A stretch of 64,000 nt of DNA from Trypanosoma brucei. Lineage: Eukaryota. The position numbers and the translations under genes were made by a program. The stretch is from the NCBI GenBank assembly GCA_000002445.1, contig CP000071.1, positions 384,001 through 448,000 of the forward strand, read 5' to 3'. Numbering within the stretch: the stretch's first letter is position 1; each line of letters begins with the position of its first letter. Positions 45,073 through 62,030 of this stretch are shown here, piece by piece. The notes below the pieces were generated by a model, which had not been told where the DNA came from, searched no databases, and saw only the letters and a list, made by a program, of their open reading frames with translations.

Positions 45073-45327
45073 TTTCTTCACTCACAATCCACTATGTTAA
45101 TTCAATGAAAGGAGAGGCGAAATGGATATTTTTGTCAATGGTCAAGCGAGTGGCACCGCACACTACCTCCTCAGCCAAATTTACACTGCAACAGAAAGTG
45201 GCAGCATCGGATAGATCAGCCCAGCATCACATGTTCAAAGGAAAAAAATAGAAAGTAGCACGTACACACACACAACGTAGTAAATGCCAGAATACAGGAC
45301 AGATGAAAAGCGGCGGGGCACCAACTA

Positions 45328-47603: not shown

Positions 47604-48136
47604 TACGACAGTGCAGCCGCACCACCCACGGCCCAGTGGAAAGTAGCAGTGACAATATGGGTGCGCAGCTAATAGAAGCGAAAATCGGTGGGAGCTATAA
47701 AGAGGAAAGCAGAACAATGCTCACACAAATCCTCCCCTGTTGTAAATCTAAGAGGTAGCAGGGGAAAAAATCATACAGTTATTGAAGCGATGCGGAAACG
47801 GTTCGAAGAAAAAACAATTAACGAAGACATCTACCAACTTTTATATGCAGATACATGACCACAGCCATGAAAACATCGGCTCCCACACCGAGTCGCCGAT
47901 CATTGACAATAACAGATACGAAAGAAAGATTTGCTATACATATCCGACGGGAAATAATGGAATACCCTCCTTGAGGGAGCCAACCTGAGACAACGATGAA
48001 AGAAAAAAAGAGACAGCAAACGAACGCACGCCCTCATTGTCAAGTTTCACGGCGCCACGACTACGCTCACGAAGCAACGCGTCACAGGCATTCACCACAA
48101 CTATTCAAAAAAAAAAATGAGTCAACCTACCCTCGG

Positions 48137-51100
48137 TCACGATACGGCTATAAAGAACCCCAAGCTGTCACCAAGGGTGTCCACCACAGGACCACTGGAC
48201 GCCAATGCTTTACGCCCACCTCCTCTGCCGCCCAGTGGTCTTTGCCCCACAGATCGCGGGGGTGTCGCGTTTAACTCCGACCGTTCACAAGCCGGTACTG
48301 TGACGTACAGTGGTAGTTCGAATAGGGGCTGCCAAACGCGGCTGGTTGCCTCGTCGGGCTTATCGTCGGGATTCAGGGGGTGACTCACAGCCCACTGTAG
48401 ATCTAGTCCAACCACCGGCACAGTGGCGACGGACCGTTTTACCACGTCGCAAACCTGAGGGGGTTCAGGTTCTGTCAAGAAAAGAACGCTATTACACATC
48501 GCACTGCCCTCCTGGCGTGGCTCAGAGCCCTTCTTCCCTGAACGCAGGTCCCACAGTACGCCACTCGGCTGTCGCGAAGGACAGTCTGTAAAATCGCTCT
48601 GATACCGAACGGCGATAACGATATCCATATCATGCTTGCTGGCACCTACCTCCTTGTTCCATCTCATTTCACATGGCTTCCAACCGGCCTGTATCGATAC
48701 CTCCCGCTCCAATTGCCGCGAGGGCGCAGCACCAGTGAGGAGGACGTCGTCGTGAAGGAGCATGTAGCGCCGTGTCACTACCAAAACCGCCTCAATGTGG
48801 CTCAGCAAATCACCCTTCCGCTCCAACGCATCTGCCAAGAGTATATTGAGCAGGAGCTTTGGATACTGCAACGCAGGCAGCCATACACTGAGAACGGACC
48901 CGGGCTGCCATCCCCTGAACTGCGCTGTCGCAACTCGCAGCCGTGAGGATAACTCTTTGTGCTGGGCGCGTTCCAATGCCCTGACAGTTTTCTCTCCATA
49001 GACCCCCTCCCACACAAGCAGTAACGATACAGCCGAATTTGACTCAAAGTCTTCATGGGGCTCCGTTTGAGAAGCACCATCTACCCCACCCTGTGAGCAT
49101 AATGGTCCATCTGAGGTGCTAAACAGCGGATCAGCCCTCGTAGAGAAAGGAACACCACAAAGGCTTCTCCGCAAGGCACTACTTGCCATGCTTCGGTATG
49201 TCACAATCGTGTGGTCGTCTCCACAAAGATGGAGGAAACTTTTGTCGGAACGACGCAGAGTCGCCATGAAGACCTCATCAGTTGGCTTCTCCCTGAGAAG
49301 CTCGTCCAGTGCAGTGCTGTAGCACAAACGCCCGTCATCCCTCAGCATCAACAGGGGACCACGCTCGTACAGCATGTTTTCAATTAGCAAACAACCTTGA
49401 TGTCTTTCGCTTCGAGATGTGTACACGAGGTAGGCCACTTTATTAAAGAGACGGTACAGCCGCTCACTAATTGACCTCCTCTGCAAGGTTGCGCTCTTCA
49501 GCTCCGTACTTGACACAGTGTGGGTTGCGGCGTGTAAAGTAGTGGATGGGTGCCTCTTGGATGACGGCTCCTCCTCCTGTGGGTCATCTAGCTGTTTGAG
49601 CGAAACGAGACGCAGGATGAGAAGAAGATCATCAGTGTTGATGTCCGTCCGATACAAATCAGTGAATACGTTGTCAAGTCCCCTATCCTCCACAAGAGCA
49701 CGCTGGACAGCACCCCCAGCACTGATTCCGGCGTGTAGCTCGAGGACATAGCCCAACGGCGTAACCATGGTGTTGCCCCGGTCGCCTCTCTTGCACGAGT
49801 CCAAATGACTGCAACTGACCCCCGATTTGGTACATTCCCTCTCAAGAAGAAGTGTCACACCCTCTCTTTTCCACGGTGGAGCAAACACCTTCCCCCCAAT
49901 GACGGAAAGCAACTGGTGCCGCGGTGACACCGAATCCACTACTACGGGAAAGCACCACTCCTGCATGGCGCGAACCACGTTATTCCGTACCATATTAGGG
50001 GCGCCCCTAACAGTGCAACACAGTACAACAGGTGTGCGTGTCGAGTGGCCACCACCCCGGAGTAGACCCCATATCCCGTACCGCCATAAGGCAGAGAACC
50101 TGCTTGAAATTGCTTGCAGGAATGACGCCTCCTCAGACACGCCAGCTGGCGGCACAAACACGGCCATAACGCAGTGGCCACGCACAACGTGGGTAGGAGG
50201 TTGTTGAAATGAATGACTGACATAACCCACAAGCTGATCCAAGTCCCTTACATTGGTTACGGTGAGGTACCGAAAGAAGAAACTAGCCGAGTTCGCACGC
50301 TGCCTAACATAACCGACCAATTCATGTGTGTTGGCTCCCTTCAGAAGCAATGGAATCGATGTGTTCCCGGAAAACTGCCACCATTCTTCACTATACCGCA
50401 GATTAGTGCACTGACTGTCAAGGGAGTCGTATATGGACAAACCCCCCTCTTCCGTGACTTTCTTCTTCACCGATGTGAAAAACGCGGCATAGAGGTCAGA
50501 AGCAGCCGCATCGCATGCCCTGTGGTTCAGCAACATCCACTGTTGAAAAAGGAAACGGATTAATTCTTCACCAGCTTTCAACACCCATGAAGTATTTGTA
50601 TCCTTAACGAAGAGCGTGCTCTCCAAACTCAGACCGCTCTCGGTGTCATCAAGCGTGGAGTTATCACGGGCAATACTATTTAGCAACGGGTCCATTGATG
50701 ATTCGTACAGGTTCCTTACTGTCTGCTTATCAGCAGCAATATTTTGCCGAGTGAGCAGCCGGTTCAGTACATCGTATTGTTGGGAAGTGAGAAAGGTGAT
50801 GTGGGAAGAATACAGCACACCCGAGTGAGCCAACATAAAGCCGCAGCTGTGCACCACGGTGGACAGAATATACCATGCGAAGATGCCACGCAGTTCCATG
50901 GGCCAGCCGGAAGCCATCACATCCACAAGGCTCTCAACGAAGTTTACCGTTGCATAAAAGTCTCTCTGTGGTGGTGGTAGCTTGTCAAAAGTTCCAGGTG
51001 ATATGCGACGCACGTAGGCACTCGACAAGTTTGTTGCACCCACAATGAACGGTTCCAGCATGCGCCATTCCCACAACCTTCCTAATATCTCTTTCTCTAT

Positions 51101-54100
51101 GACACGTACAGCCCGCTCCGCCGCTTGAATCCCCCGTTTAAGTCCCTCCCACAAAGAGGCCAGTGGTTTTTGCACGCTTTTGTTGTGCGCCTCGATGCGT
51201 AGCACAGTCATGTGGAGGGTGTGCAACTCGCGAAGAAGGAAATCAAGTCGTTCGAGCTCGCCGTTGTTGTTCCCAGCCAGCTCGTCAAGGTCACCGCTTA
51301 ACATCTCTCTGACCTCTGGTAGCGTTACACGAAAGGCACAGAGTGCGTCATTGTCTTGCTTGTCGCGCACACTAAAGACATTCTCCACCAATGGTCTTGC
51401 GTACGCCGTCGGGCACCCTAAGAGTATCGTGTGAACTCCCTCCTCTATCCGACGCGGACTGGGAATGTTGACGACCGTAGTGTAGCAACGCGTGGCAGCC
51501 TTAGCTTCTTCGTGTAGCATAACCGCAGGAGAAACACAAACCATGAGAAAACTGGGCTTTACAGGCACTTCCTGCCCAAATAGTGTGCACCTCAAGTTAC
51601 GCTTTTGCAGCGCCGCCTGCGGTAACGCCTTCAGCAACAACAGTAGAGGTCGCAAACGCTCCAGCACAGAAGGGGCATGCACGTCACATATGAGTAGACC
51701 GATCCCCGAACTAGCTGCCCTAACCACCTCGTCGCAGAAGTCCTTCTGCATTACGGAAACAACGACGCAGTCACCGCAGATGAACGCCAGACAGCGGCCC
51801 AAAACCTCTTCAAAAACGTTTGTTACACCGCAAAAGATCGGGCAGTTGGAAAAGATCTTCTGGAGCAATCCTGCGATGCATTGTCGTTCATAGGTAGAAC
51901 ATGCCGATAGAAGCAAACTTTCGACCGTCTCGTCGACGCTAGGAAACAGCAGTGAAGCTGCGGGGTCCTCCAAATCCGCCGGGGCCTGGATACCCCAATC
52001 ACAAAGAAGTGAGTACAGAGCTTTGTGGCAGGACCGTTGCACCTCAAGTGGTAAAGAGGCAAAAAACGCAAAATGAGCAGCAACCATAATAACGGCACCC
52101 TCACCCTTTGCCATCTCGTTGCACTGCGCCGCAGTTTTGCCTGGTGTATGGAACAAGGAAAACCTATCCAGAGCGTCCGTTATAAATTCAAGGGATTTTT
52201 GGCGCTTCGTCATATCCACTACCGTCGTTTCTAGGCCCTGGCTCTTCTCATCTACGTTGTTAACTTCCTGTTCAACACATTCAATTTTCCTTCTGGACTC
52301 GGAGACGCCACACCCCGCTTCGTTCTTTCTATCTTCAATAGTTGTGTACTCAAGACGCAAGCTGTCTAATTCCATCTGTTCAATCTGCAGCTCCTTCTTC
52401 ACCCGCACAGCCTCCATGACGGACAAAAGGTAATCCGACAAAGCATCAGCAAAGGGTGAAACATCGGTAAACCGTACACCGCGCAACGAGGAATGGACAC
52501 TCGCAAGGGACTCGTACGACAAACTCTCATGATCCAAATCTCGGAGCCGGGCGATAAATTTGGATGCTGTCATGATGCTTCTACCGCGGTCCCACACATC
52601 TCTTGTCGACGTTGCACGAAGATCCTCCCCCAACACCCTACAGACAGCCTTTACAAGCAACACGCCCTTGGGCGAAGGCAAGCTGCTTGCATATTGCCTG
52701 ATCTGCGCCGTCTTCATTGAACACAAACGAGCTTTTGTAGAGGAAAGACCATCGCTGATACTTTCCCTCTTTAGGCGAAGCGCGTTTTCCGCCGCGGTCA
52801 CCAGCGGCAACAAGTCACATGACTTCCTCTGCAAAAATTCCCACTCACTCTGATGCCGTGTGGCGCACTCCTTGGACCTCTCCAACCTAGCCACCAGCTC
52901 CCCACGGTGCTGGACAACGGTCACCTTCGTCTCCTCCGCCTCTTTACTTTTGTTGGCGTACTCCTGCATTTTTGTGGGAATGGCGTTGAACAGATCGTCA
53001 ACTCTAAGGGACTGAGAGACACAATGGCATATCCTAAACAAAGTCCCTCTAAGACGGTTAGCTAGTGTGGCGAACTCCTGCAACTGCTCAACAGAAATCT
53101 CGGTGTTTGTTCGTAGACAAAAAAATATGTCACATAGAAGCTGAGAGTAGGGACGTCCCAGTAGCGTCTCCGTATCCATAGGAACTCCCAAAAAGCAGGG
53201 TATGGACTCCACAGGTGCATCCTTTCCACAACCTTCTCCCCCTGGCGGTACATCCGCACTTTCGGCCCTCCCCGTTTCTGGTACGACAAATGTCGCCTTC
53301 TCGCTGCGGATCACCACATCGACATGTTCTCTCAGCATATCCGGGGCGTGCAGCACCACGGGAAGCATTTGCAGTACGAAAGGAATCACAGTGCCCAGAC
53401 GCCTCATTTCCTCAAAGCTAACAAAATGTGCTACAATACTCAAACGGGAGGAAATGCGTTCCCGCAACTGCACCTCTTCCGCAGGAGTGAGTTTCCCACT
53501 TTGGCGTTGTATGCCCCGCCGTCCGTGTAATAGGTACAGCTGCTCTTCAACAGAAAACAGTTGCCTAACATTACCACCGCGCAGTGTGTAATAAAGAAGA
53601 CTCAGTGGCCAAACCAGTGTTAGCACCTCATTAGGAACAAACACCACCATGCGACTCCCGCTACGGCAGGTGCCTTGCAGGATTTCAATGAGTTCTCGAG
53701 TAAACGAATTCTTCGCATCCGGAGCAGCAAAATCAGACAGCAATGACCTCAAGTTCACGCCCCTTCCGGCGGCCCACACGTGCAGTGCTCGACGGATGCC
53801 GATGCCGTAGGCCCCAACAAGAGCAACATGAGAGCCTTCCTGTCTCAAACAATGGTGCACATCTGATATCAACGAAACCGTCCAATGTGGGGTACAATTC
53901 ACATGCGGCGCCCCCCCAACGGCTGCCTGTTGCTGTGCCTCCTTTGTGGACGGCGATTCCATACGCGACTTGCCCGTCGATATATAAGGGGATTCACTAC
54001 GGATCTCATCGACAAGGGCAGGCGGCATCATCACGTCGTGCTTCTCCAGCCATTTCCTGATGACGTCGTGTCCCACAGATGGATACTCAAGGCTGTTCAA

Positions 54101-57100
54101 CACCTCAGTTACGTAGGTTTCGTCAGCACCCTCGCGCTGGCGTGCGCCAGGGGAGTACCGCATGGTCTCCTTCGCCATCTTAAGAAGCTCAGCCATTAAC
54201 TCTTCTCGGCGGCCTTCGCCAGCAATAAGAGGCATGAAAAACGTGTAAACCGAATGGTATATACCCTTTACGATACTCGCCTCATCTAACTGAGTGGAAA
54301 GAATACGCAACACCTTGTCCACAACCCTGAGAAGAACGTAAGGATAGGGTAACTGTGATTGATTGTCGGCCCTGTCATCAGAAAAACTCAGGAGAGACGT
54401 GTCTTCGAATGCACAAATCCCCTCGATGCTCGCCAGTGTACTCTTCAGCCGATCTAAACCCGAGTGGTTGTCCCCGAGCAGCGAATTTATGAAGTGGAAA
54501 GCCATACTCTGCGAGGCAATGAGAAAGTCGCCCACGCCCTTCAAAAACCCCTCTCCGCGCCGTACGCCCCTTGTTTTGCCAATAAGTTTCTCCACTTCAT
54601 GCAGTATTTCATCCTCAATAAAATCTGGTATCATTATCCGAAGGACGCTGTTTTCCACCTCAGGTTCGTGAGGCGGTGTCGGTAACGAGGTTCCTACACA
54701 TATAACATCCTTTATGGGCACGTAGCCCTTTGACGGTGTGCACAGAGCAGAGTAGTGGTCAATGAAAGCGAAGACACACATGGCTTGGGGATATCCCATT
54801 TCTCCAACGAGGTGGACATCATCAACACATAGCACTAACCTCTGCCCAGATGAAGGTACATATGTGTTGTGTTGGGAGCGAGAAAGACCCTGAAGCAATG
54901 CATCCTGTACATCTCCAGCGGTGCACGCTACCGTGTTGTGAACCAACTCATATGCCCACCGGCTGCTACACCGCATGTGATTTAAGAGAGTCGACTTCCC
55001 CTGACCCCGCTCCCCCACAAGCAGAACTGGCTGGCCCACCGCGGCCATATATTCTAAGTGCATTAGCGTCCGCTGTCGTGAACGCAAGGGGAAAAAGTAC
55101 GTCCACGCGTGTTGTTTAAAGTTTACACCCGGATCCCTGGACGCCCACGGGGTAGGAAACCCAACATCACTAGCCTCCTTGCCCAATTTCTTCCACCCAA
55201 ATGGTGTCGCAATATAGTTCAAAAGGTCGTCGTCTGGTGGAAATATAACATTCTCATCCACACCTATATGCTGTGCCACAGCTGTTAGGCCACTTTGCGA
55301 CTTCTTAAACGCAACAATACCCGTAGAGATTTCGCTTACTTGCATGCATAACATAACCGACCAGCAGGTCGCAAAAACAGCGCACTGAGATGCGAAAACA
55401 TCATCGCTTGAATGTTCGCCCTCCGCCTTGCCACACGATCGCGCAAACGCATACCATCGCTTGTAAAACCTGGAGCAGCGGCACACAACGCCGAACACAT
55501 CTTCGTCTAAACTAGAAATCCTTGGCACTGCGCTCACGTCGAGCACAGCCTCGATAAGTGCCGATATTACAGGGAATGCCGCGCCTGGGCTACAGTTCGG
55601 ATCGCTGTAGAGTTCATTTTTTAGCAAATCCTTCCATCCAGACGGCTCCGGCAGGGCATATATAGCCACCTCACTCACTATACGTGGATTGGCAGATTCT
55701 AAGGTAGTAACCACAGTGATAATGCGTGTTGACGAACCTTGTATAAAATCCGGTCCAGAGTACGACCGGACTCTTACATGCGCTGCGCTCTCCAAAAAAG
55801 TGGGTACATCCACCACGTTCGTGTGTTCCATCACAATCGTATGAGTCGATATCGGGTCCCACTTCCTAGCAATGGAAACAAGTAAACCAGGTCGGGATTC
55901 GTCGCCATACACTTCCGCCGAGCATAGAAGCCGGTGGGAAAGGACAATATAGTGCGTGTCCCCGACCCAACTCTTCCACAACGGGGTCTTCCCGGAATAT
56001 GCAGACCCCACGAGCATGGCGTTTTTGTTGAATTTCATGAAGTAGGTAAAACGTTCCAAACAACTATCGAACCCCAACTTTGACTTGAACTTCTCCAATA
56101 CCTCCTCCAAGACGTGTCGCGGGATCCCAAGTGTGTGAACAACGTTCCACTCGAAGAGTTTCAGCAGTCGCTCGTCCGACTCAATAACGTGCCAAAACTG
56201 CCGCAAAAATGCCGAGCACAGACTTTCAGCCATTGTCCCCGTTTTGCAGTCAGCAGCGTCTCGAATTACCGACAAGAAACTCCTGCACGTGAAGACAGCA
56301 GGCAACATCGCAACAAACTGGGAAAACATTGTGGCCAGTCTTTGCCCAATACTTGCGAAATGAGGCACCCCAAGTGCCTGGAGCGTACCCTGGGCGAGCA
56401 ACCCTAGGTCCACAGAAGGTACATAAATCGGTCGAAAGGCAAGACTGAGAGCGGTGGGTATTTCATCGAGCTCACGTGTTGTGAGAACAACATGAAAGCA
56501 CGCATCCCTGATGGCACATATAGAATTATCGCCTGCCTGAAACTCTACCGTTGACATACCACCGTCATTGTGTCTCTTTTCATTGCGACATGCTGACTCA
56601 ACACCTTTGAGAAGCGCTGAGACTGAATCGGCTAACTCCCTGCCCAGAAGTTCAATGTCCTTTAGGCACAATATCACTCCCGCGCCCAAGCAACCACGTA
56701 AGGCACGCACAATGCCCTCGAATGGCAGAGTCGGATGGCATTGGAGGAACCAACAGAAGCGGCCCAAGTACTGTGCATAATATTCTAGCTCCGAGTTTTC
56801 GTTGTTCTTCCCGATAAGAATAGGGAAGGAAGATGCTCTTATCGACATAAGCATGCTGCACAATCCCTTCTCAACATACTCAGGAGTCAAAATGGGAATG
56901 TTATAGTCTCCAAAAAACTCCATACCGTAGGGTAACTGAAGGCCCATCATCTGTACAACAATTTTTCCGCCTTCCAGCAACGTTTGCACCATCGCTGTGG
57001 CTTTAAGATCCTCCAGCGTTTCAACACCGGATTTGCTGACCAGTCGCAGTTCATCCCGGTACCGTAAGAGAGAGGTAATGGCAGTACTAAGGATTCTCTG

Positions 57101-60100
57101 AACTCTGGCACCTAAGGTATCATCAGCAAGTCGTACATATTCTTCCAAAACATCTTTTGAACGGCGGGTATATGCGTTCATGCCTGCCGTGCCAGCAACA
57201 GAAACAGCCTCCCGCAGGTCATGGTGACAGATTGTGCGAAGAGCTACATCGATCACCTGTACACATGAATCACCCAACCAAACCAAGGTATCCATGCGGT
57301 AATGATTTTCCACCGACATTTTTATTTCGTTGAGAAGTGAGGAACGTAACGTTCTGTCAAACGTTTTCATCCATTGTTCAACAGGTAGAGGTGATAACTC
57401 AATGGGGGTGTCCGTTCTAAGCACAGAACCATCAGTAGTAATAAACGACGTCACAACATTTCCCTCCAGATTAACGTCACAAACCCTGCTGTACAATGTT
57501 GTAAGGTGGCGCTTCAGTTTTGTTGCGTTGTGAACGGACAAGAACGACAACAACGACTCATCATCCATGAGATAAAAACGTGGGAACACCTCCCGCTTCG
57601 CGTCAAGTGAAGATGCAAGAATTTTTCGAACATCACCTAAAATTGTACGAGCCAAAGTGACCTGGTCTTGTATATTCTCCTGCATCATGGCCGTAAAAAG
57701 AGTGTACTGAGCTTTCCGCAAAGTCGCTGCCAGTGACTTGAAAGTATCACTAGTAGATGACACCTTCTCACGCAATAATTTTAGGTCTCGAGGAGTGAGT
57801 CCTATAAAATCCTCGTCCGTTGTGGTTTCAAGGGTTATTCCAAACGGTAGCACCTCCTTCCACTCTTTCTCGACGTCCTCCCACGTTAGTAATGTCTCCT
57901 TCATTCGTTGCACAACAGAATCGAACTCCATTACGGAACTTATGGTATACTGACTAAGATGTTCAACTTGACGTAAAGCACTTAACTCGTGTGAGAATGC
58001 TTCCAGCTGTGAAGATATCGAGGTCCTGCATCTCGGCGAAAGAATGAGGGCATCATTGGATCCCTCGGCAACTTCAAAGACAAAGCGTGTTTTCTTCGCG
58101 TCACTCTTCATGCGCTCCAAAGTAGCTTCCGCCTCAAAATCTAAAAAAGCGGGGTCTACAATTAGTTTTATCTCGTCAAGGTGATCAATGATACCATTCT
58201 CAAGTAATTGCTTTAGTGTGACGTTAGAATCAATCTGAGTCGACTGCTTTCTGCCAAGCTGGAGAATCCTCCCTATCTCCTTCCAGTGATTTTTCCGCAA
58301 GCCAGGTGTTGATAAGTATGCCAAAAGAGTCTGCAGAGACTCGAAGTCTGCCAACACCTGTTCTTGTTGCCTCCCTAGACACACTAAACCCGGATATCCC
58401 CGTAGATTCCGAACTGAGGAATGAAGGAGCCTTCTGCATCGCTGGACTTCATCGATAGTTTTCTCACTGTTCAGGGCACTGAGAGGAATTATATAGTAAT
58501 CCTTGACCCGAGTCGAATCAAAAACGCTGCACCAAAACTGTTCCAGAACGTCAAAAACACGCAACACGGGATGTACGTCATCAAATGTCTCGACAGTTTC
58601 GAGACCAAGTGACTTTTCGCAATAAAAGACGTGGTCAATTCCCTTGACGACGTCGTCAACAATAACTCGCAGCTCCTCACATGTTTGCGCACATATGTCA
58701 CAAACATCAACACTGAGAAGTCCCAATAACTCAATCACACCATTACGGACCACAGTTATTTTACCATGCAAGTCATTGCGGTACTCAACTAACTGAACAA
58801 CCAAAGCAGGCTTCCTCTCAGCGCAAGCCTTCTTCGCATTATTTGTTAACACGAGAAGCTCGTTGGGACATCGCATGAGCTCTGCTGCTACTTCATACAG
58901 TTGAGAATCTGCTGGTATGAGAAGCTTTTCTAAGTAACTAAAGAACTCGATAGCCCTTCTGCAATCGCCTGCCTCTATCTGCTTTGATAAATGTTCTGCA
59001 TATGTAATATCAGATTGCAATTTCTCCAGCTCCTCAACACTGTTTGGAATTACCGATAACTGATCGTTGTAACTACGGCATTTCTCCAATGATGAGCGTA
59101 TGAAAGACAAAATGTCTTTCTGAACCATGTTCAAAAAGCTTTTCAAGTAAGAAGACCATTGTTTTACGTACCATTTCTTCACATCAGTGCAGTTAATAGC
59201 AATGCAGCCGCAAAACACCACATCAGGTGATATTTTCCCCACTTCTAATATGGTATCGCGAAGCAAATTCACATTGCTTACAACTTCTTCCTCCGAGCAT
59301 TTGGTGAAGCACACTCCGTTTAGTGTCGGCATACGAGCAAACATCGAGTACTTCTCCGTTAAGTCCTCAACTACGGTACATGCTGCTCCTAGGTACCTTA
59401 TTAGGGTTGCTTTTCCTGGAAAGCTGTCGTCGTCAAACAAATTTAGGGAGTGTCTCTCAAACTGAATCGTTCGCATAATAACAGTTTCCGGAGTAGGAAG
59501 GTTGTTTGCGCTGTCGAGTAATTCGTCCAGCAGATCAGCGATACCAAAATGAAGTTGAGCGAACGATGGAGAACTTGGTAAACCACAACCACCAACGACA
59601 AAATACACCTCAATAAGGGACATTTTCCGTGCCTTCAACGGTGTCACTATACGATCCCCACCAGTAGCGAAGAATGATACTAAATCATCAATTGCATCGG
59701 ATATAAGAATCCTGATACGGTTGGTTAAAAATATACGTACCATCAAAAATACACGCCACAGTTCACTCTCTTTTAAATCATTCAAATCCATCGACAAAAG
59801 CGTACCTGCCTCGGGGATCGTGGTAAATAAAAGTTGTTCCACCTCCGTATAGAACTCAATCCTTATTCTGGTGAACGCCGCCCTCATAGAACATCCCAGC
59901 TGAGAAAGGAAATCATCCGCGTCTGTTCGCCAGTTGAAGGTAGTTGTGTTGAAAACAGCAAGCCTCTCAAAACGATCCGACCACAAGTGGTGTAACCTCA
60001 CAAAAAAATCATTTTTCCCCTCAGACCATATAAGCGAGTGTTTTAGACAATAAAGGGACTCGTTAAATGCTAAAAATCCCCCGTGGTCAGAGCCGTCATC

Positions 60101-60811
60101 CCGTCCATTGTCTTCTTCGAATCTTTTGATATCTTCATTGCGACAAACGAGGCGCAAGGGTGCCATTATCCTGCGGAAAAGGGAATTGAGATTCATATAA
60201 TCATAAATAGCTTCGACACAAACCCTAATATACACCTGTTCAATCTCTTTCATTGTCCTCTCAACAACATCCCGATGGTCAGCAGTTGTTCCTTGAGTTG
60301 CTAATATGACTATTCGTCTCAAACAACCCGTTTCATGAGTTATACATCCTTTGGCTACATTCTCATATAAATCAATGAGCAATGATGTCCTAAAATCACG
60401 GCCACTTTTACCGGAGGTGCACAAAGCCTCCTCGCTAATCCCAACAGGAACTCGAACCGAACGTCTCTGCGATTGTAACTGTGACACTTGAATGTACTGC
60501 CTCTTTCCATCATAACAAAATGTTCCCACATATGGTGAGTAATGACAACCTATTCTCGAGCTAGGAGATGATGATGCCTTCTTCCATGAGCAAATCGCGT
60601 CGAAAAGATCGCTCTCCTTGAACTCAGGGAAGTGAAGAACTTCGGTTCGTCCCGTGTAGTCGGGTGCTATGCCAAAGGAACCGAAGCCAAAAGTCTCACC
60701 AAACCCTGCATCCGTGGCAACAGTGATAAATGGTCGCGGAATACCATCTAGAAAATAGGCAAGGACCTTTTCAAAACGAATCTGTCCACCACAATCCCGC
60801 CTGTAATTCAT
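48137..60811 (-). CDS. Dynein heavy chain family protein (4224 aa), with non-canonical AAA1 nucleotide-binding motifs
   Basis: The ORF-track start at 60820 is a TTG; the first ATG is at 60811 (MNYRRDCGG...). The AAA1 block aligns by eye to canonical DHC: ...LGRFCWFLQC... vs LGRFVLVFNC, and ELDEIPTALSLAFRPIYVPSVDLGLLAQ vs [26 protein letters not shown]. P-loops follow in dynein order and spacing: the AAA2-like AMLVGSAYSGKT about 270 aa after the AAA1 site, the AAA3-like VLLVGERGQGKST about 340 aa further on, then the AAA4-like HVALVGAYGIGIRR, which is degenerate. Coiled-coil stalk-like segments and a C-terminal domain follow. Confidence 0.9.
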   Translation of the reverse strand: MNYRRDCGGQIRFEKVLAYFLDGIPRPFITVATDAGFGETFGFGSFGIAPDYTGRTEVLHFPEFKESDLFDAICSWKKASSSPSSRIGCHYSPYVGTFCYDGKRQYIQVSQLQSQRRSVRVPVGISEEALCTSGKSGRDFRTSLLIDLYENVAKGCITHETGCLRRIVILATQGTTADHRDVVERTMKEIEQVYIRVCVEAIYDYMNLNSLFRRIMAPLRLVCRNEDIKRFEEDNGRDDGSDHGGFLAFNESLYCLKHSLIWSEGKNDFFVRLHHLWSDRFERLAVFNTTTFNWRTDADDFLSQLGCSMRAAFTRIRIEFYTEVEQLLFTTIPEAGTLLSMDLNDLKESELWRVFLMVRIFLTNRIRILISDAIDDLVSFFATGGDRIVTPLKARKMSLIEVYFVVGGCGLPSSPSFAQLHFGIADLLDELLDSANNLPTPETVIMRTIQFERHSLNLFDDDSFPGKATLIRYLGAACTVVEDLTEKYSMFARMPTLNGVCFTKCSEEEVVSNVNLLRDTILEVGKISPDVVFCGCIAINCTDVKKWYVKQWSSYLKSFLNMVQKDILSFIRSSLEKCRSYNDQLSVIPNSVEELEKLQSDITYAEHLSKQIEAGDCRRAIEFFSYLEKLLIPADSQLYEVAAELMRCPNELLVLTNNAKKACAERKPALVVQLVEYRNDLHGKITVVRNGVIELLGLLSVDVCDICAQTCEELRVIVDDVVKGIDHVFYCEKSLGLETVETFDDVHPVLRVFDVLEQFWCSVFDSTRVKDYYIIPLSALNSEKTIDEVQRCRRLLHSSVRNLRGYPGLVCLGRQQEQVLADFESLQTLLAYLSTPGLRKNHWKEIGRILQLGRKQSTQIDSNVTLKQLLENGIIDHLDEIKLIVDPAFLDFEAEATLERMKSDAKKTRFVFEVAEGSNDALILSPRCRTSISSQLEAFSHELSALRQVEHLSQYTISSVMEFDSVVQRMKETLLTWEDVEKEWKEVLPFGITLETTTDEDFIGLTPRDLKLLREKVSSTSDTFKSLAATLRKAQYTLFTAMMQENIQDQVTLARTILGDVRKILASSLDAKREVFPRFYLMDDESLLSFLSVHNATKLKRHLTTLYSRVCDVNLEGNVVTSFITTDGSVLRTDTPIELSPLPVEQWMKTFDRTLRSSLLNEIKMSVENHYRMDTLVWLGDSCVQVIDVALRTICHHDLREAVSVAGTAGMNAYTRRSKDVLEEYVRLADDTLGARVQRILSTAITSLLRYRDELRLVSKSGVETLEDLKATAMVQTLLEGGKIVVQMMGLQLPYGMEFFGDYNIPILTPEYVEKGLCSMLMSIRASSFPILIGKNNENSELEYYAQYLGRFCWFLQCHPTLPFEGIVRALRGCLGAGVILCLKDIELLGRELADSVSALLKGVESACRNEKRHNDGGMSTVEFQAGDNSICAIRDACFHVVLTTRELDEIPTALSLAFRPIYVPSVDLGLLAQGTLQALGVPHFASIGQRLATMFSQFVAMLPAVFTCRSFLSVIRDAADCKTGTMAESLCSAFLRQFWHVIESDERLLKLFEWNVVHTLGIPRHVLEEVLEKFKSKLGFDSCLERFTYFMKFNKNAMLVGSAYSGKTPLWKSWVGDTHYIVLSHRLLCSAEVYGDESRPGLLVSIARKWDPISTHTIVMEHTNVVDVPTFLESAAHVRVRSYSGPDFIQGSSTRIITVVTTLESANPRIVSEVAIYALPEPSGWKDLLKNELYSDPNCSPGAAFPVISALIEAVLDVSAVPRISSLDEDVFGVVCRCSRFYKRWYAFARSCGKAEGEHSSDDVFASQCAVFATCWSVMLCMQVSEISTGIVAFKKSQSGLTAVAQHIGVDENVIFPPDDDLLNYIATPFGWKKLGKEASDVGFPTPWASRDPGVNFKQHAWTYFFPLRSRQRTLMHLEYMAAVGQPVLLVGERGQGKSTLLNHMRCSSRWAYELVHNTVACTAGDVQDALLQGLSRSQHNTYVPSSGQRLVLCVDDVHLVGEMGYPQAMCVFAFIDHYSALCTPSKGYVPIKDVICVGTSLPTPPHEPEVENSVLRIMIPDFIEDEILHEVEKLIGKTRGVRRGEGFLKGVGDFLIASQSMAFHFINSLLGDNHSGLDRLKSTLASIEGICAFEDTSLLSFSDDRADNQSQLPYPYVLLRVVDKVLRILSTQLDEASIVKGIYHSVYTFFMPLIAGEGRREELMAELLKMAKETMRYSPGARQREGADETYVTEVLNSLEYPSVGHDVIRKWLEKHDVMMPPALVDEIRSESPYISTGKSRMESPSTKEAQQQAAVGGAPHVNCTPHWTVSLISDVHHCLRQEGSHVALVGAYGIGIRRALHVWAAGRGVNLRSLLSDFAAPDAKNSFTRELIEILQGTCRSGSRMVVFVPNEVLTLVWPLSLLYYTLRGGNVRQLFSVEEQLYLLHGRRGIQRQSGKLTPAEEVQLRERISSRLSIVAHFVSFEEMRRLGTVIPFVLQMLPVVLHAPDMLREHVDVVIRSEKATFVVPETGRAESADVPPGGEGCGKDAPVESIPCFLGVPMDTETLLGRPYSQLLCDIFFCLRTNTEISVEQLQEFATLANRLRGTLFRICHCVSQSLRVDDLFNAIPTKMQEYANKSKEAEETKVTVVQHRGELVARLERSKECATRHQSEWEFLQRKSCDLLPLVTAAENALRLKRESISDGLSSTKARLCSMKTAQIRQYASSLPSPKGVLLVKAVCRVLGEDLRATSTRDVWDRGRSIMTASKFIARLRDLDHESLSYESLASVHSSLRGVRFTDVSPFADALSDYLLSVMEAVRVKKELQIEQMELDSLRLEYTTIEDRKNEAGCGVSESRRKIECVEQEVNNVDEKSQGLETTVVDMTKRQKSLEFITDALDRFSLFHTPGKTAAQCNEMAKGEGAVIMVAAHFAFFASLPLEVQRSCHKALYSLLCDWGIQAPADLEDPAASLLFPSVDETVESLLLSACSTYERQCIAGLLQKIFSNCPIFCGVTNVFEEVLGRCLAFICGDCVVVSVMQKDFCDEVVRAASSGIGLLICDVHAPSVLERLRPLLLLLKALPQAALQKRNLRCTLFGQEVPVKPSFLMVCVSPAVMLHEEAKAATRCYTTVVNIPSPRRIEEGVHTILLGCPTAYARPLVENVFSVRDKQDNDALCAFRVTLPEVREMLSGDLDELAGNNNGELERLDFLLRELHTLHMTVLRIEAHNKSVQKPLASLWEGLKRGIQAAERAVRVIEKEILGRLWEWRMLEPFIVGATNLSSAYVRRISPGTFDKLPPPQRDFYATVNFVESLVDVMASGWPMELRGIFAWYILSTVVHSCGFMLAHSGVLYSSHITFLTSQQYDVLNRLLTRQNIAADKQTVRNLYESSMDPLLNSIARDNSTLDDTESGLSLESTLFVKDTNTSWVLKAGEELIRFLFQQWMLLNHRACDAAASDLYAAFFTSVKKKVTEEGGLSIYDSLDSQCTNLRYSEEWWQFSGNTSIPLLLKGANTHELVGYVRQRANSASFFFRYLTVTNVRDLDQLVGYVSHSFQQPPTHVVRGHCVMAVFVPPAGVSEEASFLQAISSRFSALWRYGIWGLLRGGGHSTRTPVVLCCTVRGAPNMVRNNVVRAMQEWCFPVVVDSVSPRHQLLSVIGGKVFAPPWKREGVTLLLERECTKSGVSCSHLDSCKRGDRGNTMVTPLGYVLELHAGISAGGAVQRALVEDRGLDNVFTDLYRTDINTDDLLLILRLVSLKQLDDPQEEEPSSKRHPSTTLHAATHTVSSTELKSATLQRRSISERLYRLFNKVAYLVYTSRSERHQGCLLIENMLYERGPLLMLRDDGRLCYSTALDELLREKPTDEVFMATLRRSDKSFLHLCGDDHTIVTYRSMASSALRRSLCGVPFSTRADPLFSTSDGPLCSQGGVDGASQTEPHEDFESNSAVSLLLVWEGVYGEKTVRALERAQHKELSSRLRVATAQFRGWQPGSVLSVWLPALQYPKLLLNILLADALERKGDLLSHIEAVLVVTRRYMLLHDDVLLTGAAPSRQLEREVSIQAGWKPCEMRWNKEVGASKHDMDIVIAVRYQSDFTDCPSRQPSGVLWDLRSGKKGSEPRQEGSAMCNSVLFLTEPEPPQVCDVVKRSVATVPVVGLDLQWAVSHPLNPDDKPDEATSRVWQPLFELPLYVTVPACERSELNATPPRSVGQRPLGGRGGGRKALASSGPVVDTLGDSLGFFIAVS

Positions 60812-61050
60812 ACTATACAATCCCCTTATAACTTATGAATACTAGAACCCTCCACAAAAATAATAATTAATTCAAAAAAAAATACGGGTGCCCGCCGCGA
60901 TGGGGTTACAAACCGAAGTACTCCAAGGAAGACCGTTCGTTCAAGGAAACACGTGGAACGTTAATACGTTATGAACGAACATACAAGTCTAAACCAACGG
61001 TCAGAACGCAGTTGAGATTTGTCGTATAACAAAAGAGAGTAAAAGAAACA

Positions 61051-61512
61051 TTAGCTCCGTAGCTTGTTGAAGTCGAATCTGTGCTCAGCGCCTTGTTTCA
61101 ACTGCTCAGTTACGAACTGTAACCACGCAAGCTGGTTAACTCCCTCCTCGCAGTGGTGCGCGCTGATTCGCTTTAGTTCGTACTCATAGTCCTCCATCAT
61201 CGTGCAAATACGACTGCGCATGAGCATCCCGCGACATGTGTACAGTATTCCATAGAGCACAACACCCATACTAATAGCAGGGGGGAGGGGCCGTGTGTAG
61301 TAGACACTGTTCTTAAATATGTGACGTGGACCCCAGAGTCTGAACACCAGCATAACACTGGACGTTGTGAAGGTTACGCACCCCACAAGATAATACCACG
61401 CCCTGCTCTGATGACGGGCCAACTGTTCCACCCGGTCGGCAACGTGGTGCCTCTGGCTTTGGGAAATCTCCGTAACATACTGTGAAAACTCCTGACCAAC
61501 CTTGGACGACAT
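61051..61512 (-). CDS. Small hypothetical membrane protein (153 aa, ~2 predicted TM helices); first gene of the minus-strand polycistron
   Basis: The ORF-track ORF (61051..61572, GTG start) translates straight through a polypyrimidine tract. On the coding strand the sequence is ttttcttctttctttctttctacctttctttctttcAGtaATGTCGTCC, so MSSKVGQEF... at 61512 is the start that makes sense of the splice signal. Hydrophobic segments YYLVGCVTFTTSSVMLVF and AISMGVVLYGILYT. Confidence 0.5.
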   Translation of the reverse strand: MSSKVGQEFSQYVTEISQSQRHHVADRVEQLARHQSRAWYYLVGCVTFTTSSVMLVFRLWGPRHIFKNSVYYTRPLPPAISMGVVLYGILYTCRGMLMRSRICTMMEDYEYELKRISAHHCEEGVNQLAWLQFVTEQLKQGAEHRFDFNKLRS

Positions 61513-61514
61513 TA

Positions 61515-61553
61515 CTGAAAGAAAGAAAGGTAGAAAGAAAGAAAGAAGAAAAT
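61515..61553 (-). promoter_or_regulatory. Polypyrimidine tract + AG: predicted spliced-leader trans-splice acceptor for the 61051..61512 gene
   Basis: 36-nt pure C/T run on the minus strand (plus-strand aaagaaagaaaggtagaaagaaagaaagaagaaaa), ending in cAG 2 nt upstream of the ATG. Confidence 0.5.
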
Positions 61554-61946
61554 GCATCAAACCGGGCGACACACACAGTAGCGGAGATCAATCCCACGCG
61601 GGGAACCTCCTCGTTTTCAGGAGTCATACCATCACGCGAGGGGGTGCCCCGTATCGAGCCGGACCCCAAAGGGAAACTCGGAAATGCTGCGGAGGAAGCC
61701 AGGGACTCCGGGGTCCGCGGAGTCTGGACACCGTCGCCGACAGCCGAGTCTTCCACTACGGGCAAGACGACGGCGACCCCTACCACCGGCAGCCGCACCG
61801 CGCCGGCGATACAGTTGCGCGCTCACAGCACCACTGTAGGGGTGCCTCGCCCGTGTAGCCACAACCAGAGAGAAAGGGCAGCGGGGAGCCGACACAACTG
61901 CAGAAGGCTCTCGTCGTCAGAAAGTTCAACAGTGAAATGTAGAAGT
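61554..61946. promoter_or_regulatory. Divergent strand-switch region: GC-rich spacer between the minus-strand and plus-strand polycistrons; putative RNA Pol II transcription start region
   Basis: Gene orientation flips here: minus-strand genes lie below 61512 and a plus-strand gene begins at 62031. The ~400-bp spacer is conspicuously GC-rich (gcggggaacctcc..., ggggtgccccg..., ccggggtccgcggagtctggacaccgtcgccgacagccgag..., cgcaccgcgccggcg...), unlike the AT/homopolymer-rich intergenic DNA elsewhere in the window. Overlapping ORFs in several frames on both strands are typical of GC-rich non-coding DNA. Confidence 0.55.
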
Positions 61947-61969
61947 GCCTTCTCTCTTCTCTTCTTGTA
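61947..61969 (+). promoter_or_regulatory. Polypyrimidine tract + AG: predicted trans-splice acceptor for the F-box-like gene
   Basis: ccttctctcttctcttcttgtAG about 60 nt upstream of the ATG at 62031. Confidence 0.45.
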
Positions 61970-62030
61970 GCCGTTCAATCCAAGGAATAGTAAGGGCACA
62001 AGGCACATTTTAGTTGGAGCGCGAAATAGC

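What the first reader, a model, noticed from the sequence alone, without database searches (positions are those of the whole stretch)
48137..60811. Giant dynein heavy chain whose primary ATPase site (AAA1) has lost the canonical Walker A and Walker B motifs
The 4,224-aa ORF has unmistakable dynein motor architecture, with an AAA1 block followed at dynein-like spacing by AAA2, AAA3 and AAA4. The sequence shows this directly: GPAGTGKT does not occur anywhere in the protein. Where the AAA1 P-loop should be, immediately before the conserved LGRF(V/C)xxxxC block, the protein reads SSFPILIGKNNENSE; the lysine is kept but the GxxxxGK[TS] frame is gone. The Walker-B position (canonical GAWGCFDEFNRL) reads GAGVILCLKDIELL, with no D-E pair. 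By contrast AAA2 (GSAYSGKT) and AAA3 (GERGQGKST) keep intact P-loops, and AAA4 (GAYGIGIRR) is degenerate. From established knowledge, AAA1 is the principal catalytic site of every motile dynein, so inactivating it is expected to abolish motor activity. By inference, this is a structural or regulatory 'pseudo-dynein' of the DNHD1-like class, or a very divergent lineage-specific heavy chain, rather than a conventional axonemal or cytoplasmic motor. That would be functionally unusual and is probably not captured by a generic 'dynein heavy chain, putative' annotation.
Basis: partly seen in the sequence, partly recalled or inferred. Interest (0 to 1): 0.65.

Follow-up and report, generated by a model that had tools for sequence, protein, structure and literature searches.

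The report
Kinetoplastid dynein with a dead motor site
This Trypanosoma brucei gene encodes a giant, well-conserved dynein heavy chain whose main ATP-burning site has been destroyed, so it probably acts as a non-motile microtubule-binding part rather than a motor; animals have evolved similar "dead" dyneins independently.

Summary
The 4,224-aa ORF (window 48137-60811, minus strand) is T. brucei TREU927 chromosome 8 protein XP_846972/Q57VL9, probably Tb927.8.1360. Three independent alignments place AAA1 at residues ~1301-1590. There the Walker A loop (GPAGTGKT) is replaced by LIGKNNENS, Walker B DE by KD, and the sensor-I loop is deleted.

The loss is shared by all trypanosomatid orthologues found: Trypanosoma, Leishmania, Leptomonas and five unnamed lineages. 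It is not an assembly error. The gene is not a pseudogene, since dN/dS is 0.17 and the 12.7-kb ORF is intact in every lineage.

The rest of the dynein plan survives. This includes an inner-arm-type tail, the linker, the AAA2 P-loop, invariant AAA3 Walker A/B, and a collinear stalk and microtubule-binding domain. AAA4 is dead and AAA6 is very divergent.

Deeper kinetoplastid orthologues, one sharing the DHC/L7a gene order, still keep an AAA1 P-loop but have Walker B "ED". The decay was therefore stepwise.

The family sits nearest single-headed inner-arm dyneins. It is not an orthologue of DNHD1 or DNAHX, and it is absent from the solved T. brucei and Leishmania 96-nm repeat structures.

My best reading is a non-motile, microtubule-binding structural or regulatory dynein. 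Its function is untested.

The parts
48137..60811 (-). Complete CDS (4,224 aa plus stop) of the divergent dynein heavy chain. It is XP_846972.1 / Q57VL9, probably Tb927.8.1360.
   Evidence: Gene ID is inferred from L7a = Tb927.8.1330, F-box = Tb927.8.1380 and the T. equiperdum gene order.
58580..60811 (-). Tail, residues 1-744. There is no DHC_N1 domain. Residues ~260-744 are helical bundles of the single-headed inner-arm-dynein type. Residues 1-138 are a family-conserved N-terminal region of unknown fold.
   Evidence: phmmer aligns residues 379-1531 to DNAH1. The AF2 model has pLDDT 80-90 over 560-740. The 14 Foldseek hits with E<=1e-3 are all single-headed IAD heavy chains.
56912..58579 (-). 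Linker, residues 745-1300. The Pfam DHC_N2 match covers 752-1165. This is the best-conserved part of the family.
   Evidence: Pfam E 4.4e-48, hhalign confidence 6-9, 56% identity within Trypanosoma.
56042..56911 (-). AAA1 module, residues 1301-1590. The fold-level homology is retained but the catalytic motifs are gone.
56789..56833 (-). Remnant of the AAA1 Walker A (SSFPILIGKNNENSE, residues 1327-1341). It aligns with canonical GGAPxGPAGTGKTET and is about 3 residues shorter. The Lys is not conserved in other species.
56645..56686 (-). Remnant of the AAA1 Walker B (GAGVILCLKDIELL, residues 1376-1389). Canonical C-F-D-E-F-N becomes C-L-K-D-I-E.
56456..56500 (-). AAA1 sensor-I region (CFHVVLTTRELDEIP, residues 1438-1452). 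The canonical ITMNPGYAGR loop is deleted. The downstream FRP motif is kept.
55112..56041 (-). AAA2 module, residues 1591-1900. The Walker A GSAYSGKT (1602-1609; window 55985-56008) is conserved in most orthologues.
53942..55111 (-). AAA3 module, residues 1901-2290. Walker A is GERGQGKS (1933-1940; window 54989-55015). Walker B is the axonemal-type LVLCVDDVHL (1992-2001; window 54809-54838). G1938, K1939, D1997 and D1998 are invariant in all 11 aligned orthologues.
   Evidence: Pfam AAA_7 E 3.4e-11
52952..53941 (-). AAA4 module, residues 2291-2620. Walker A is degenerate (GAYGIGIRR) and Walker B is FVPNE. The site is dead across the family.
51932..52951 (-). Coiled-coil stalk and microtubule-binding domain, residues 2621-2960. 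MTBD helix 1 is SPKGVLLVKAVCRVLGEDL (2713-2731). The region is collinear with canonical stalks, with about 76 gap-free residues before the MTBD and about 55 after it.
   Evidence: hhalign confidence 6-9
50612..51931 (-). AAA5 region including the strut, residues 2961-3400. Profile alignment confidence is moderate.
49202..50611 (-). AAA6-position region, residues 3401-3870. It is very divergent. An alpha/beta Rossmann-like domain is predicted at ~3340-3630.
   Evidence: Weak collinear match to the AAA6 'PLIFVLSPG' strand. AF2 pLDDT is 75-90 for that sub-region only. Foldseek gives only generic P-loop/AAA+ hits, none at E<=1e-3.
48140..49201 (-). C-terminal 354 residues, 3871-4224. They have no detectable similarity to canonical dynein C-terminal domains and were not modelled confidently.

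Best explanation
The gene encodes a kinetoplastid-specific 'orphan' dynein heavy chain. It descends from a single-headed inner-arm-type axonemal dynein and has become a non-motile pseudo-motor.

**Shown**
- The protein keeps the full dynein order: IAD-type tail, linker, AAA1-AAA5, stalk and MTBD, and a divergent AAA6 region.
- In all trypanosomatids, AAA1 has lost the P-loop, the Walker B D-E pair and the sensor-I loop.
- AAA4 is also dead.
- AAA3 (Walker A GK and Walker B DD) is invariant, and the AAA2 P-loop is largely conserved.
- The gene is under purifying selection.
- Deeper kinetoplastid orthologues keep an AAA1 P-loop but already have Walker B 'ED' and no sensor-I Asn. Catalysis was probably lost first and nucleotide binding later.

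**Inferred**
- Without a P-loop, AAA1 cannot bind ATP, so the AAA1-driven cycle (ring closure, linker bending, ATP-induced microtubule release) cannot run.
- The head is then expected to stay in an apo-like state, which in canonical dyneins means a straight linker and strong microtubule binding.
- Because the stalk and MTBD are retained and conserved, the protein most likely works as a static or nucleotide-modulated microtubule tether or regulator. It would be anchored through its IAD-type tail, probably in the flagellum. Nucleotide at AAA2/AAA3 would serve a structural or regulatory role.
- It is not one of the eight major dyneins of the 96-nm axonemal repeat.
For: - **Identity and orthologues:**
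- **AAA1 motif loss in homologous columns across the family:**, plus the Pfam AAA_6 match that starts only at profile position 53.
- **Whole-motor collinearity:** E 4e-91, with confident stalk and MTBD.
- **AAA3 invariance:** G1938, K1939, D1997 and D1998 are invariant.
- **Purifying selection:** dN/dS is 0.17, from 38 synonymous and 22 nonsynonymous differences. The ORF of about 4,200-5,000 codons is intact in 15 or more lineages.
- **Stepwise decay and orthology of the P-loop-retaining members:** HMM scores of 393-620 bits against 248 or less for other dyneins; the motifs themselves; NJ bootstraps of 100/100/99; shared DHC, ~350-aa ORF and tandem L7a synteny; reciprocal best hit.
- **Inner-arm affinity:** the top 18 PDB profile hits are all single-headed IADs; the tail-model Foldseek hits are exclusively single-headed IAD heavy chains; AAA3 has the axonemal-type 'DD' Walker B; there is no DHC_N1 domain.
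- **Not a major repeat dynein:** no chain of the T. brucei (9e5c) or L. tarentolae (9y6s) 96-nm repeat structures matches above 190 bits. PMC12637542 assigns all eight dyneins to other heavy chains.
- **Precedent for non-motile dynein heavy chains:** DNAHX and DNHD1 (bioRxiv 10.1101/2025.01.18.633724).
Against: - No localisation, expression, ATPase, microtubule-binding or knock-down data could be retrieved for this gene or its orthologues.
- The apo-locked, strong-binding state is extrapolated from cytoplasmic dynein biochemistry.
- AAA6 and the C-terminal 350 residues could not be confirmed as dynein-like, so closure of the ring is assumed.
- Whether the MTBD still binds microtubules is unknown. 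It carries a 6-residue insertion and a 5-residue deletion relative to canonical sequences.
- The inner-arm origin rests on score rankings, a distance tree with long branches and a low-confidence tail model (pLDDT 56).
- The strict conservation of AAA3 hints that the protein may be more than a passive scaffold.
Confidence: 0.6

Rival explanations
1. It works like DNAHX. It would be a conformationally locked, non-motile heavy chain that pairs head-to-head with single-headed inner-arm dyneins, keeping them inhibited and carrying them on IFT trains during flagellum assembly. It would not be a stable microtubule tether.
For: There is a published model for an AAA1-degenerate heavy chain. Absence from the mature 96-nm repeat structures fits a transient assembly factor. 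The IAD-type tail could share light chains with its clients.
Against: DNAHX keeps ATP bound in AAA1, is locked pre-powerstroke, and has a disrupted stalk/MTBD. Here the P-loop is gone, so an apo-like state is expected, and the stalk/MTBD is collinear and conserved. The phi conformation requires the pre-powerstroke state. DNAHX derives from the outer-arm alpha chain and is reported absent from protists.
Confidence: 0.15
2. It is a non-axonemal microtubule cross-linker. It might act in the subpellicular corset, flagellar pocket, basal-body region or spindle, using a rigor-like dynein head.
For: It is absent from both solved kinetoplastid axonemal repeat structures. The MTBD is retained. The family is restricted to kinetoplastids, which have elaborate cortical microtubule arrays.
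Against: The tail fold and best sequence matches are to axonemal single-headed inner-arm dyneins. Kollmar 2016 argues that orphan dyneins with axonemal-type tails are axonemal. There is no localisation evidence either way.
Confidence: 0.12
3. It is still a force-producing motor whose cycle is driven from another site, chiefly AAA3, the only site with invariant Walker A and B motifs.
For: AAA3 GK and DD are invariant in all 11 aligned orthologues. The linker is the best-conserved region. The stalk/MTBD is retained.
Against: No dynein is known to be driven from AAA3. AAA3 carries the 'DD' of axonemal dyneins rather than the catalytic 'DE', and the region after the sensor-I position does not align with the canonical GGR motif. 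AAA1-AAA2 closure is what moves the linker in all studied dyneins (established knowledge).
Confidence: 0.07
4. It is a decaying relic ('ghost gene' or pseudogene) with no function.
For: It is extremely divergent, at 41-48% identity within Trypanosoma and 28% to Leishmania. It has lost motifs in AAA1 and AAA4, and has sporadic loss of the AAA2 P-loop in T. vivax.
Against: dN/dS is 0.17. The uninterrupted ORF of 4,200-5,000 codons is kept in every lineage sampled. Hundreds of columns are invariant. Synteny is conserved to a free-living kinetoplastid.
Confidence: 0.02
5. The apparent motif loss is an artefact: a mis-alignment, a true AAA1 located elsewhere, or an assembly error.
For: None found.
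Against: Three alignment methods agree. No other GxxxxGK[ST] exists upstream. The motif region is unchanged in the T. b. equiperdum copy, with gambiense and T. equiperdum copies in the same >=90%-identity cluster. The loss is shared by all trypanosomatid orthologues.
Confidence: 0.01

Closest known systems
Single-headed inner-arm axonemal dyneins (IAD-3/IAD-4 groups: DNAH1, DNAH3, DNAH7, DNAH12; Chlamydomonas DHC2/IDA-d; Leishmania IDAa)
   Same: These are the best sequence matches for tail, linker, AAA1 and AAA2. The tail is short, lacks DHC_N1, and its predicted fold matches only these heavy chains. AAA3 has the axonemal-type Walker B 'DD'. The module order and stalk/MTBD are the same.
   Different: AAA1 Walker A, Walker B and sensor-I are destroyed. 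AAA4 is dead. AAA6 and the C-terminus are unrecognisable. It is not one of the heavy chains modelled in the T. brucei or L. tarentolae 96-nm repeat. Sequence identity is only about 19-20%.
[quoted passage not shown]
   Same: It is a dynein heavy chain with poorly conserved AAA1 catalytic motifs that vary within the subfamily. It is interpreted as non-motile, is maintained in evolution, and is restricted to one lineage.
   Different: DNAHX arose from the outer-arm alpha chain in animals and is reported absent from protists. It keeps a Walker A that binds ATP and a Walker B, is locked pre-powerstroke by an AAA4 insertion, has insertions that disrupt its MTBD, and forms a phi-like heterodimer. 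The kinetoplastid protein has no P-loop at all, keeps a collinear MTBD and has an inner-arm-type tail. This is independent, convergent loss.
DNHD1 (Kollmar class 11 'HD1' orphan dynein of metazoans)
   Same: It is a highly divergent heavy chain whose AAA1 lacks the catalytic Walker B residues. It was once regarded as a 'ghost gene' but is functional in sperm flagella and nodal cilia.
   Different: Class 11 is metazoan-specific. The phyletic distribution (Kinetoplastea only), the synteny and the nearest relatives of this family argue for a separate origin.
Kollmar's unclassified 'orphan' dyneins, including one from the kinetoplastid Bodo saltans (PMC5100056)
   Same: These are taxon-restricted, bona fide but aberrant heavy chains whose tails align to one of the nine canonical classes. 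The P-loop-retaining orthologue P0084, from a free-living-type kinetoplastid contig, may correspond to that Bodo orphan.
   Different: That paper does not describe the AAA1 state or the trypanosomatid members in its main text. The identity with the Bodo orphan is my inference and was not tested.

Membership tests
Dynein heavy chain superfamily | Linker domain (DHC_N2) N-terminal to the AAA ring | tested here: met
   Pfam PF08393 E 4.4e-48, residues 752-1165; hhalign confidence 6-9
Dynein heavy chain superfamily | Six concatenated AAA+ modules in one polypeptide | tested here: inconclusive
   AAA1-AAA5 are collinear with canonical dyneins in a single alignment, E 4e-91. For AAA6 there is only a weak collinear match plus an AF2 alpha/beta domain with generic P-loop/AAA+ Foldseek hits.
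Dynein heavy chain superfamily | Antiparallel coiled-coil stalk with an MTBD inserted between AAA4 and AAA5 | tested here: met
   Residues 2621-2960 align in register with canonical stalk/MTBD at confidence 6-9. Microtubule binding itself was not tested.
Dynein heavy chain superfamily | Catalytically competent AAA1 (Walker A GPAGTGKT, Walker B DE, sensor-I Asn) | tested here: not met
   Walker A becomes LIGKNNENS, Walker B DE becomes KD, and the sensor-I loop is deleted. The loss is family-wide in trypanosomatids.
Single-headed inner-arm dynein (IAD-3/IAD-4 type) | Short tail without the DHC_N1 dimerisation region, with the IAD-type helical-bundle fold | tested here: met
   No PF08385 hit. DNAH1 aligns from residue 379. 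All 14 Foldseek hits with E<=1e-3 are single-headed IAD heavy chains, while two-headed, outer-arm and cytoplasmic chains score E>=0.03. The model confidence is only moderate (pLDDT 56).
Single-headed inner-arm dynein (IAD-3/IAD-4 type) | Groups phylogenetically with IAD-3/IAD-4 motor domains | tested here: inconclusive
   The top 18 PDB profile hits are IADs. The NJ tree places the clade beside DNAH1/DNAH3-type sequences, but the branches are long, this node has no measured support, and no ML analysis with a full repertoire was run.
Single-headed inner-arm dynein (IAD-3/IAD-4 type) | Occupies a defined site in the 96-nm axonemal repeat | tested here: not met
   No chain in 9e5c (T. brucei) or 9y6s (L. 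tarentolae) matches it (<=190 bits). All eight dyneins are assigned to other heavy chains (PMC12637542). A minor, doublet-specific or regional site is not excluded.
Single-headed inner-arm dynein (IAD-3/IAD-4 type) | Tail binds actin plus p28/DNALI1 or centrin light chains | not testable with these tools
   This needs pull-down, proteomics or a complex structure.
DNHD1 (dynein class 11) | Orthology to metazoan DNHD1 | not tested
The literature states that class 11 is metazoan-specific. This family is confined to Kinetoplastea.
DNHD1 (dynein class 11) | [quoted passage not shown] | tested here: met
   Walker B is KD in T. brucei, WE in T. vivax and MN in Leishmania. This is a functional resemblance only.
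DNAHX non-motile dynein subfamily | [quoted passage not shown] | tested here: not met
   The closest relatives are single-headed IADs, and outer-arm chains score lower. The organism is a kinetoplastid.
DNAHX non-motile dynein subfamily | AAA1 still binds ATP (Walker A present) and is locked pre-powerstroke; the MTBD is disrupted by insertions | tested here: not met
   The P-loop is absent in trypanosomatids. The stalk/MTBD is collinear with only small indels. The conformational state is not testable here.

The most novel reading that the evidence does not exclude
Kinetoplastids may preserve, in living lineages, successive stages of turning a dynein motor into something else. Free-living and early-branching kinetoplastids have an ATP-binding but probably non-hydrolysing AAA1 (P-loop kept, Walker B 'ED', no sensor-I Asn). 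Trypanosomatids have an AAA1 that cannot bind nucleotide at all. In all of them AAA3 stays invariant. The most novel reading not excluded is that control has shifted to AAA3, so the protein would be an AAA3-gated, nucleotide-switchable microtubule tether, or even a slow AAA3-driven motor. No dynein is known to work that way.
Probability: 0.15. Interest if true: 0.8.

Novelty: new variant of a known kind. Interest (0 to 1): 0.5.

Why it matters
Dynein motility is thought to depend universally on AAA1. Heavy chains that have given up AAA1 yet are kept by selection (DNHD1, and the 2025 DNAHX preprint) are only now being recognised, and so far only in animals.

This kinetoplastid family would be an independent, protist example, and a more extreme one. 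The P-loop has been erased completely while the microtubule-binding stalk and the AAA3 site are kept.

Two features make it useful:
- Natural intermediates exist in related lineages.
- It sits in organisms (T. brucei, Leishmania) where tagging, knock-out and axoneme cryo-EM are routine.

It therefore offers a direct way to ask what a dynein ring does when AAA1 is silent, and what AAA3 does on its own. It also flags a conserved parasite cytoskeletal protein with no characterised function.

Tried and rejected
**Searching for a hidden AAA1 P-loop**
- A regex over the whole protein and all orthologues found none.

**C-terminal third**
- Pfam gave no hit.
- hhalign of residues 3300-4224 alone was not significant, E 0.44.
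- The AF2 model was poor, pLDDT 47.
- Foldseek against PDB gave no hit at E<=1e-3, only generic P-loop/AAA+ folds.
- AAA6 and the C-terminal domain therefore remain unresolved.

**Literature on function**
- No main text in the library mentions Q57VL9/XP_846972 or Tb927.8.1350/1360/1370.
- The held TrypTag supplements do not contain these IDs, or even the neighbouring genes, so the genome-wide table is probably not held.
- The Leishmania 07.05xx ID search gave only unrelated papers.
- Wickstead & Gull 2007 excluded extremely divergent heavy chains.

**Direct comparison with DNHD1 or DNAHX**
- Not possible, because neither sequence could be obtained.

**More named orthologues**
- The word-indexed search with the family alignment returned no additional named orthologues.
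- The exhaustive HMMER search was needed to find them.
- Most are from unnamed Logan or metagenome assemblies, so their taxa are inferred from tree position only.

**Organism behind P0084**
- A search with P0084 found no named Bodo sequence.

**Rejected explanations**
- Pseudogene, on dN/dS and intact ORFs.
- Assembly error, because the motif region is unchanged in the T. b. equiperdum copy, two further assemblies fall in the same >=90% cluster, and the loss is shared across the clade.
- DNHD1 or DNAHX orthology.
Full report
**What is there**

The window is Trypanosoma brucei brucei TREU927 chromosome 8. The ORF at 48137-60811 (minus strand; 4,224 aa from the first ATG) is exactly XP_846972.1 / UniProt Q57VL9. 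GenBank names it 'hypothetical protein, conserved'. The flanking genes fix the locus:
- Two tandem L7a genes lie downstream; Tb927.8.1330 is L7a.
- An F-box gene lies upstream on the other strand; it is Tb927.8.1380.
- A small annotated ORF lies between the dynein gene and the F-box gene.

The dynein gene is therefore probably Tb927.8.1360. That ID is an inference.

**Checking the observation**

GPAGTGKT is absent. Only two GxxxxGK[ST] motifs exist, at residue 1602 (AAA2) and residue 1933 (AAA3).

Three methods put the AAA1 module at about residues 1301-1590:
- Pfam AAA_6 matches residues 1346-1609, but only from profile position 53. The stretch holding the P-loop does not match.
- A MAFFT alignment with seven canonical dyneins was made.
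- A profile-profile alignment of 11 orthologues against 34 canonical heavy chains is one collinear alignment over residues 4-3867, E 4e-91.

In those alignments:
- Canonical GPAGTGKTE pairs with LIGKNNENS, which is about three residues shorter.
- Walker B C-F-D-E-F-N pairs with C-L-K-D-I-E.
- The sensor-I loop ITMNPGYAGR is deleted.
- The flanking LGRF...C block and the FRP motif are kept.

The T. b. equiperdum copy differs at only 20 residues, none in the motif region, and gambiense and T. equiperdum copies fall in the same >=90%-identity cluster.

**It is a conserved family, not a relic**

Full-length orthologues exist in seven Trypanosoma species (41-48% identity) and in Leishmania (28-29%). 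An exhaustive HMMER scan of 1.84 billion representatives added Leptomonas pyrrhocoris and several unnamed trypanosomatid-like sequences. All of them lack the AAA1 Walker A. The residues in its place differ from species to species, and the T. brucei lysine is not conserved. That pattern is what an unconstrained loop would show.

Comparing T. b. brucei with T. b. equiperdum gives 38 synonymous and 22 nonsynonymous differences, so dN/dS is 0.17. The frame of 4,200-5,000 codons is uninterrupted in every lineage. The 'ghost gene' explanation is rejected.

**Anatomy of the rest of the protein**

| Region | State |
|---|---|
| Linker | Best-conserved region: 56% identity within Trypanosoma; DHC_N2 E 4e-48 |
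| AAA2 | Keeps G[PS]xxSGKT in most species; lost in T. vivax, altered in T. theileri and T. melophagium |
| AAA3 | Cleanest site: G1938, K1939, D1997 and D1998 invariant in all 11 aligned orthologues; Walker B is the axonemal 'DD' type |
| AAA4 | Dead family-wide: GAYGIGIRR and FVPNE |
| Stalk and MTBD (2621-2960) | Align in register at high confidence; about 76 gap-free residues before the MTBD and about 55 after; only small indels inside |
| AAA5 | Aligns moderately |
| AAA6 position | Very divergent; weak collinear match; AF2 gives a confident alpha/beta domain at ~3340-3630 only; Foldseek finds only generic P-loop/AAA+ folds |
| Last ~350 residues | Match nothing |

**Origin**

phmmer aligns residues 379-1531 to DNAH1, reaching into the tail. 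With the family profile, the 18 best PDB matches are all single-headed inner-arm dyneins. Examples are DNAH3 at 193 bits, L. tarentolae IDAa at 186, DNAH1 at 186, and DNAH7 and DNAH12. Outer-arm, cytoplasmic-1, two-headed inner-arm and dynein-2 chains score 145-113 bits.

The tail has no DHC_N1 domain. An AF2 model of residues 1-745 has moderate confidence: pLDDT 56 overall and 80-90 for residues 560-740. All 14 of its Foldseek hits at E<=1e-3 are single-headed inner-arm heavy chains from Chlamydomonas, human, bovine, T. brucei and L. tarentolae axonemes.

A distance tree places the family beside DNAH1/DNAH3-type sequences. Long branches make that placement provisional.

**Stepwise decay of AAA1**

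Three more distant sequences score 620, 501 and 393 bits against the family profile. Every other dynein scores 248 bits or less. These three are P0084, P0086 and P0088, from metagenome contigs with intronless, same-strand gene arrays.
- They form a 100%-bootstrap clade with the trypanosomatid sequences. A prokinetoplastid sequence (Apiculatamorpha spiralis) joins at 99%.
- P0084 is a positional orthologue. Its contig carries the same order as the T. brucei window: dynein gene, a homologous ~350-aa ORF (E 4e-21), then two tandem L7a genes.
- Its best hits outside itself are the Trypanosoma family, followed by a DNAH1.

These deeper members still have an AAA1 Walker A (GSWGVGKT, GRHGSGKS, GRAGSGKT; Apiculatamorpha has GPINTGKS). 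Their Walker B reads 'ED', or 'HN' in Apiculatamorpha, and the sensor-I Asn is missing.

The simplest reading is that the family ancestor had already lost efficient hydrolysis while still binding nucleotide. The trypanosomatid stem then lost the P-loop.

**How it probably works**

*Shown:* AAA1 has no P-loop, no D-E pair and no sensor-I loop. AAA3 is strictly conserved, and AAA2 largely so. The stalk and MTBD are retained. The gene is under purifying selection.

*From established dynein mechanism:* ATP binding at AAA1 closes the AAA1/AAA2 gap, bends the linker and releases the microtubule. The apo state has a straight linker and binds microtubules tightly.

*Inferred:*
- This head cannot run that cycle and should sit in an apo-like, strongly binding state.
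- It would then act as a non-motile microtubule tether or regulator, anchored by an inner-arm-type tail.
- AAA2/AAA3 nucleotide would be structural or regulatory.

It is not one of the eight major axonemal dyneins. No chain in the T. brucei (9e5c) or L. tarentolae (9y6s) 96-nm repeat structures corresponds to it, and the Leishmania study assigns all positions to other heavy chains. A minor, regional or doublet-specific axonemal site, an assembly role or a cytoplasmic location all remain possible.

I found no localisation, proteomic or phenotype data.

**Comparison with what is known**

Non-motile heavy chains are a recognised but recent idea.
- *DNAHX* (sea urchin; 2025 preprint) has a degenerate AAA1 that still holds ATP. 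It also has a pre-powerstroke lock, a disrupted MTBD, a phi-particle partner and an outer-arm-alpha origin. It is reported absent from protists.
- *DNHD1* lacks the catalytic Walker B residues. It is Kollmar's metazoan-specific class 11.
- *Kollmar's orphans* number 75 and include one from Bodo saltans. Their tails resemble canonical classes.

The kinetoplastid family is an independent, convergent case with a different profile: the P-loop is erased, the MTBD is kept, and the tail is inner-arm type. 'Lineage-specific divergent heavy chain with a dead AAA1' is right. 'DNHD1-like class' holds only as an analogy.

**Verdict**

This is a real feature, correctly observed, in an annotated but uncharacterised gene. 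I rate it a new variant of a known kind (non-motile dynein heavy chains), of moderate interest. The points of interest are the complete loss of the AAA1 nucleotide site, the natural intermediates in related lineages, the invariant AAA3, and the experimental tractability of the organism.

My confidence by claim:
- About 0.9 that it is an AAA1-dead, selected, kinetoplastid-specific heavy chain.
- About 0.6 for the full statement, including the non-motile microtubule-binding role.
- Lower for any particular cellular site.

Noticed in passing
window 44242-45081 (-) and 45328-46158 (-); L001 17866-19716: There are two tandem 60S ribosomal protein L7a genes with identical Pfam scores. The same tandem pair sits downstream of the orthologous dynein gene in a free-living-type kinetoplastid metagenome contig. 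Each T. brucei copy is 82.1% identical to each copy there. Either the tandem duplication is ancient, or the copies are homogenised by concerted evolution in both lineages.
   Followed up: partly
window ~60812-62030: This is a divergent strand-switch region. Every ORF of at least 250 aa from 1.8 to 60.8 kb lies on the minus strand, and the F-box gene (62031-63095, Tb927.8.1380) is on the plus strand. The dynein gene is therefore the first large gene of its polycistronic unit. A small ORF (61051-61572, minus strand) is annotated as a 168-aa hypothetical protein in T. b. equiperdum.
   Followed up: partly
window ~25400-30100: A 4.7-kb AT-rich stretch (GC 0.36-0.39, against about 0.5 elsewhere) has no ORF of at least 250 aa, only short poly-A/T-rich tandem repeats. 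It may be a long UTR or intergenic region, or it may hold an unannotated non-coding element.
   Followed up: partly
window 46515-47717 (-); L001 16660-17688: The 400-aa ORF directly downstream of the dynein gene has no Pfam domain. It is nevertheless conserved in sequence (E 4e-21) and in position next to the dynein orthologue in the distant kinetoplastid contig. This linkage may or may not be functional.
   Followed up: partly
orthologues P0002 (T. vivax), P0004/P0005 (T. theileri, T. melophagium): The AAA2 P-loop is not universally kept. T. vivax reads GSAFSKAT, with no GK. T. theileri and T. melophagium read GPAYSGKM. AAA2 nucleotide binding may therefore be dispensable in some species, whereas AAA3 is invariant.
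   Followed up: partly
P0089 (Apiculatamorpha spiralis), P0090, P0095: Other highly divergent heavy chains have an intact AAA1 Walker A but a degenerate Walker B ('HN', 'DG'). P0089 groups with the kinetoplastid family at 99% bootstrap. P0090 and P0095 are of unknown origin and sit just outside it. Degenerate-AAA1 dyneins may be more widespread among protists than is described.
   Followed up: partly
window 13388-16492 (-), 35851-38019 (-), 40654-41658 (-): The neighbouring genes are a 1,034-aa protein with a CLP1_P (Grc3/Nol9-like polynucleotide kinase) domain, a 722-aa protein with a C-terminal PH_31 domain, and a mitochondrial carrier protein. All look ordinary, and none is obviously linked to the dynein gene.
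   Followed up: no
residues 1-138 of the protein (window ~60398-60811): The extreme N-terminus carries motifs that recur in the family consensus across Trypanosoma and Leishmania (RFEKV..FLDGIP.PF, PDYTG, HYSPYVG.FRFDGK). It has no Pfam hit and was not modelled by AF2 (pLDDT below 35). It may be a family-specific docking element.
   Followed up: partly
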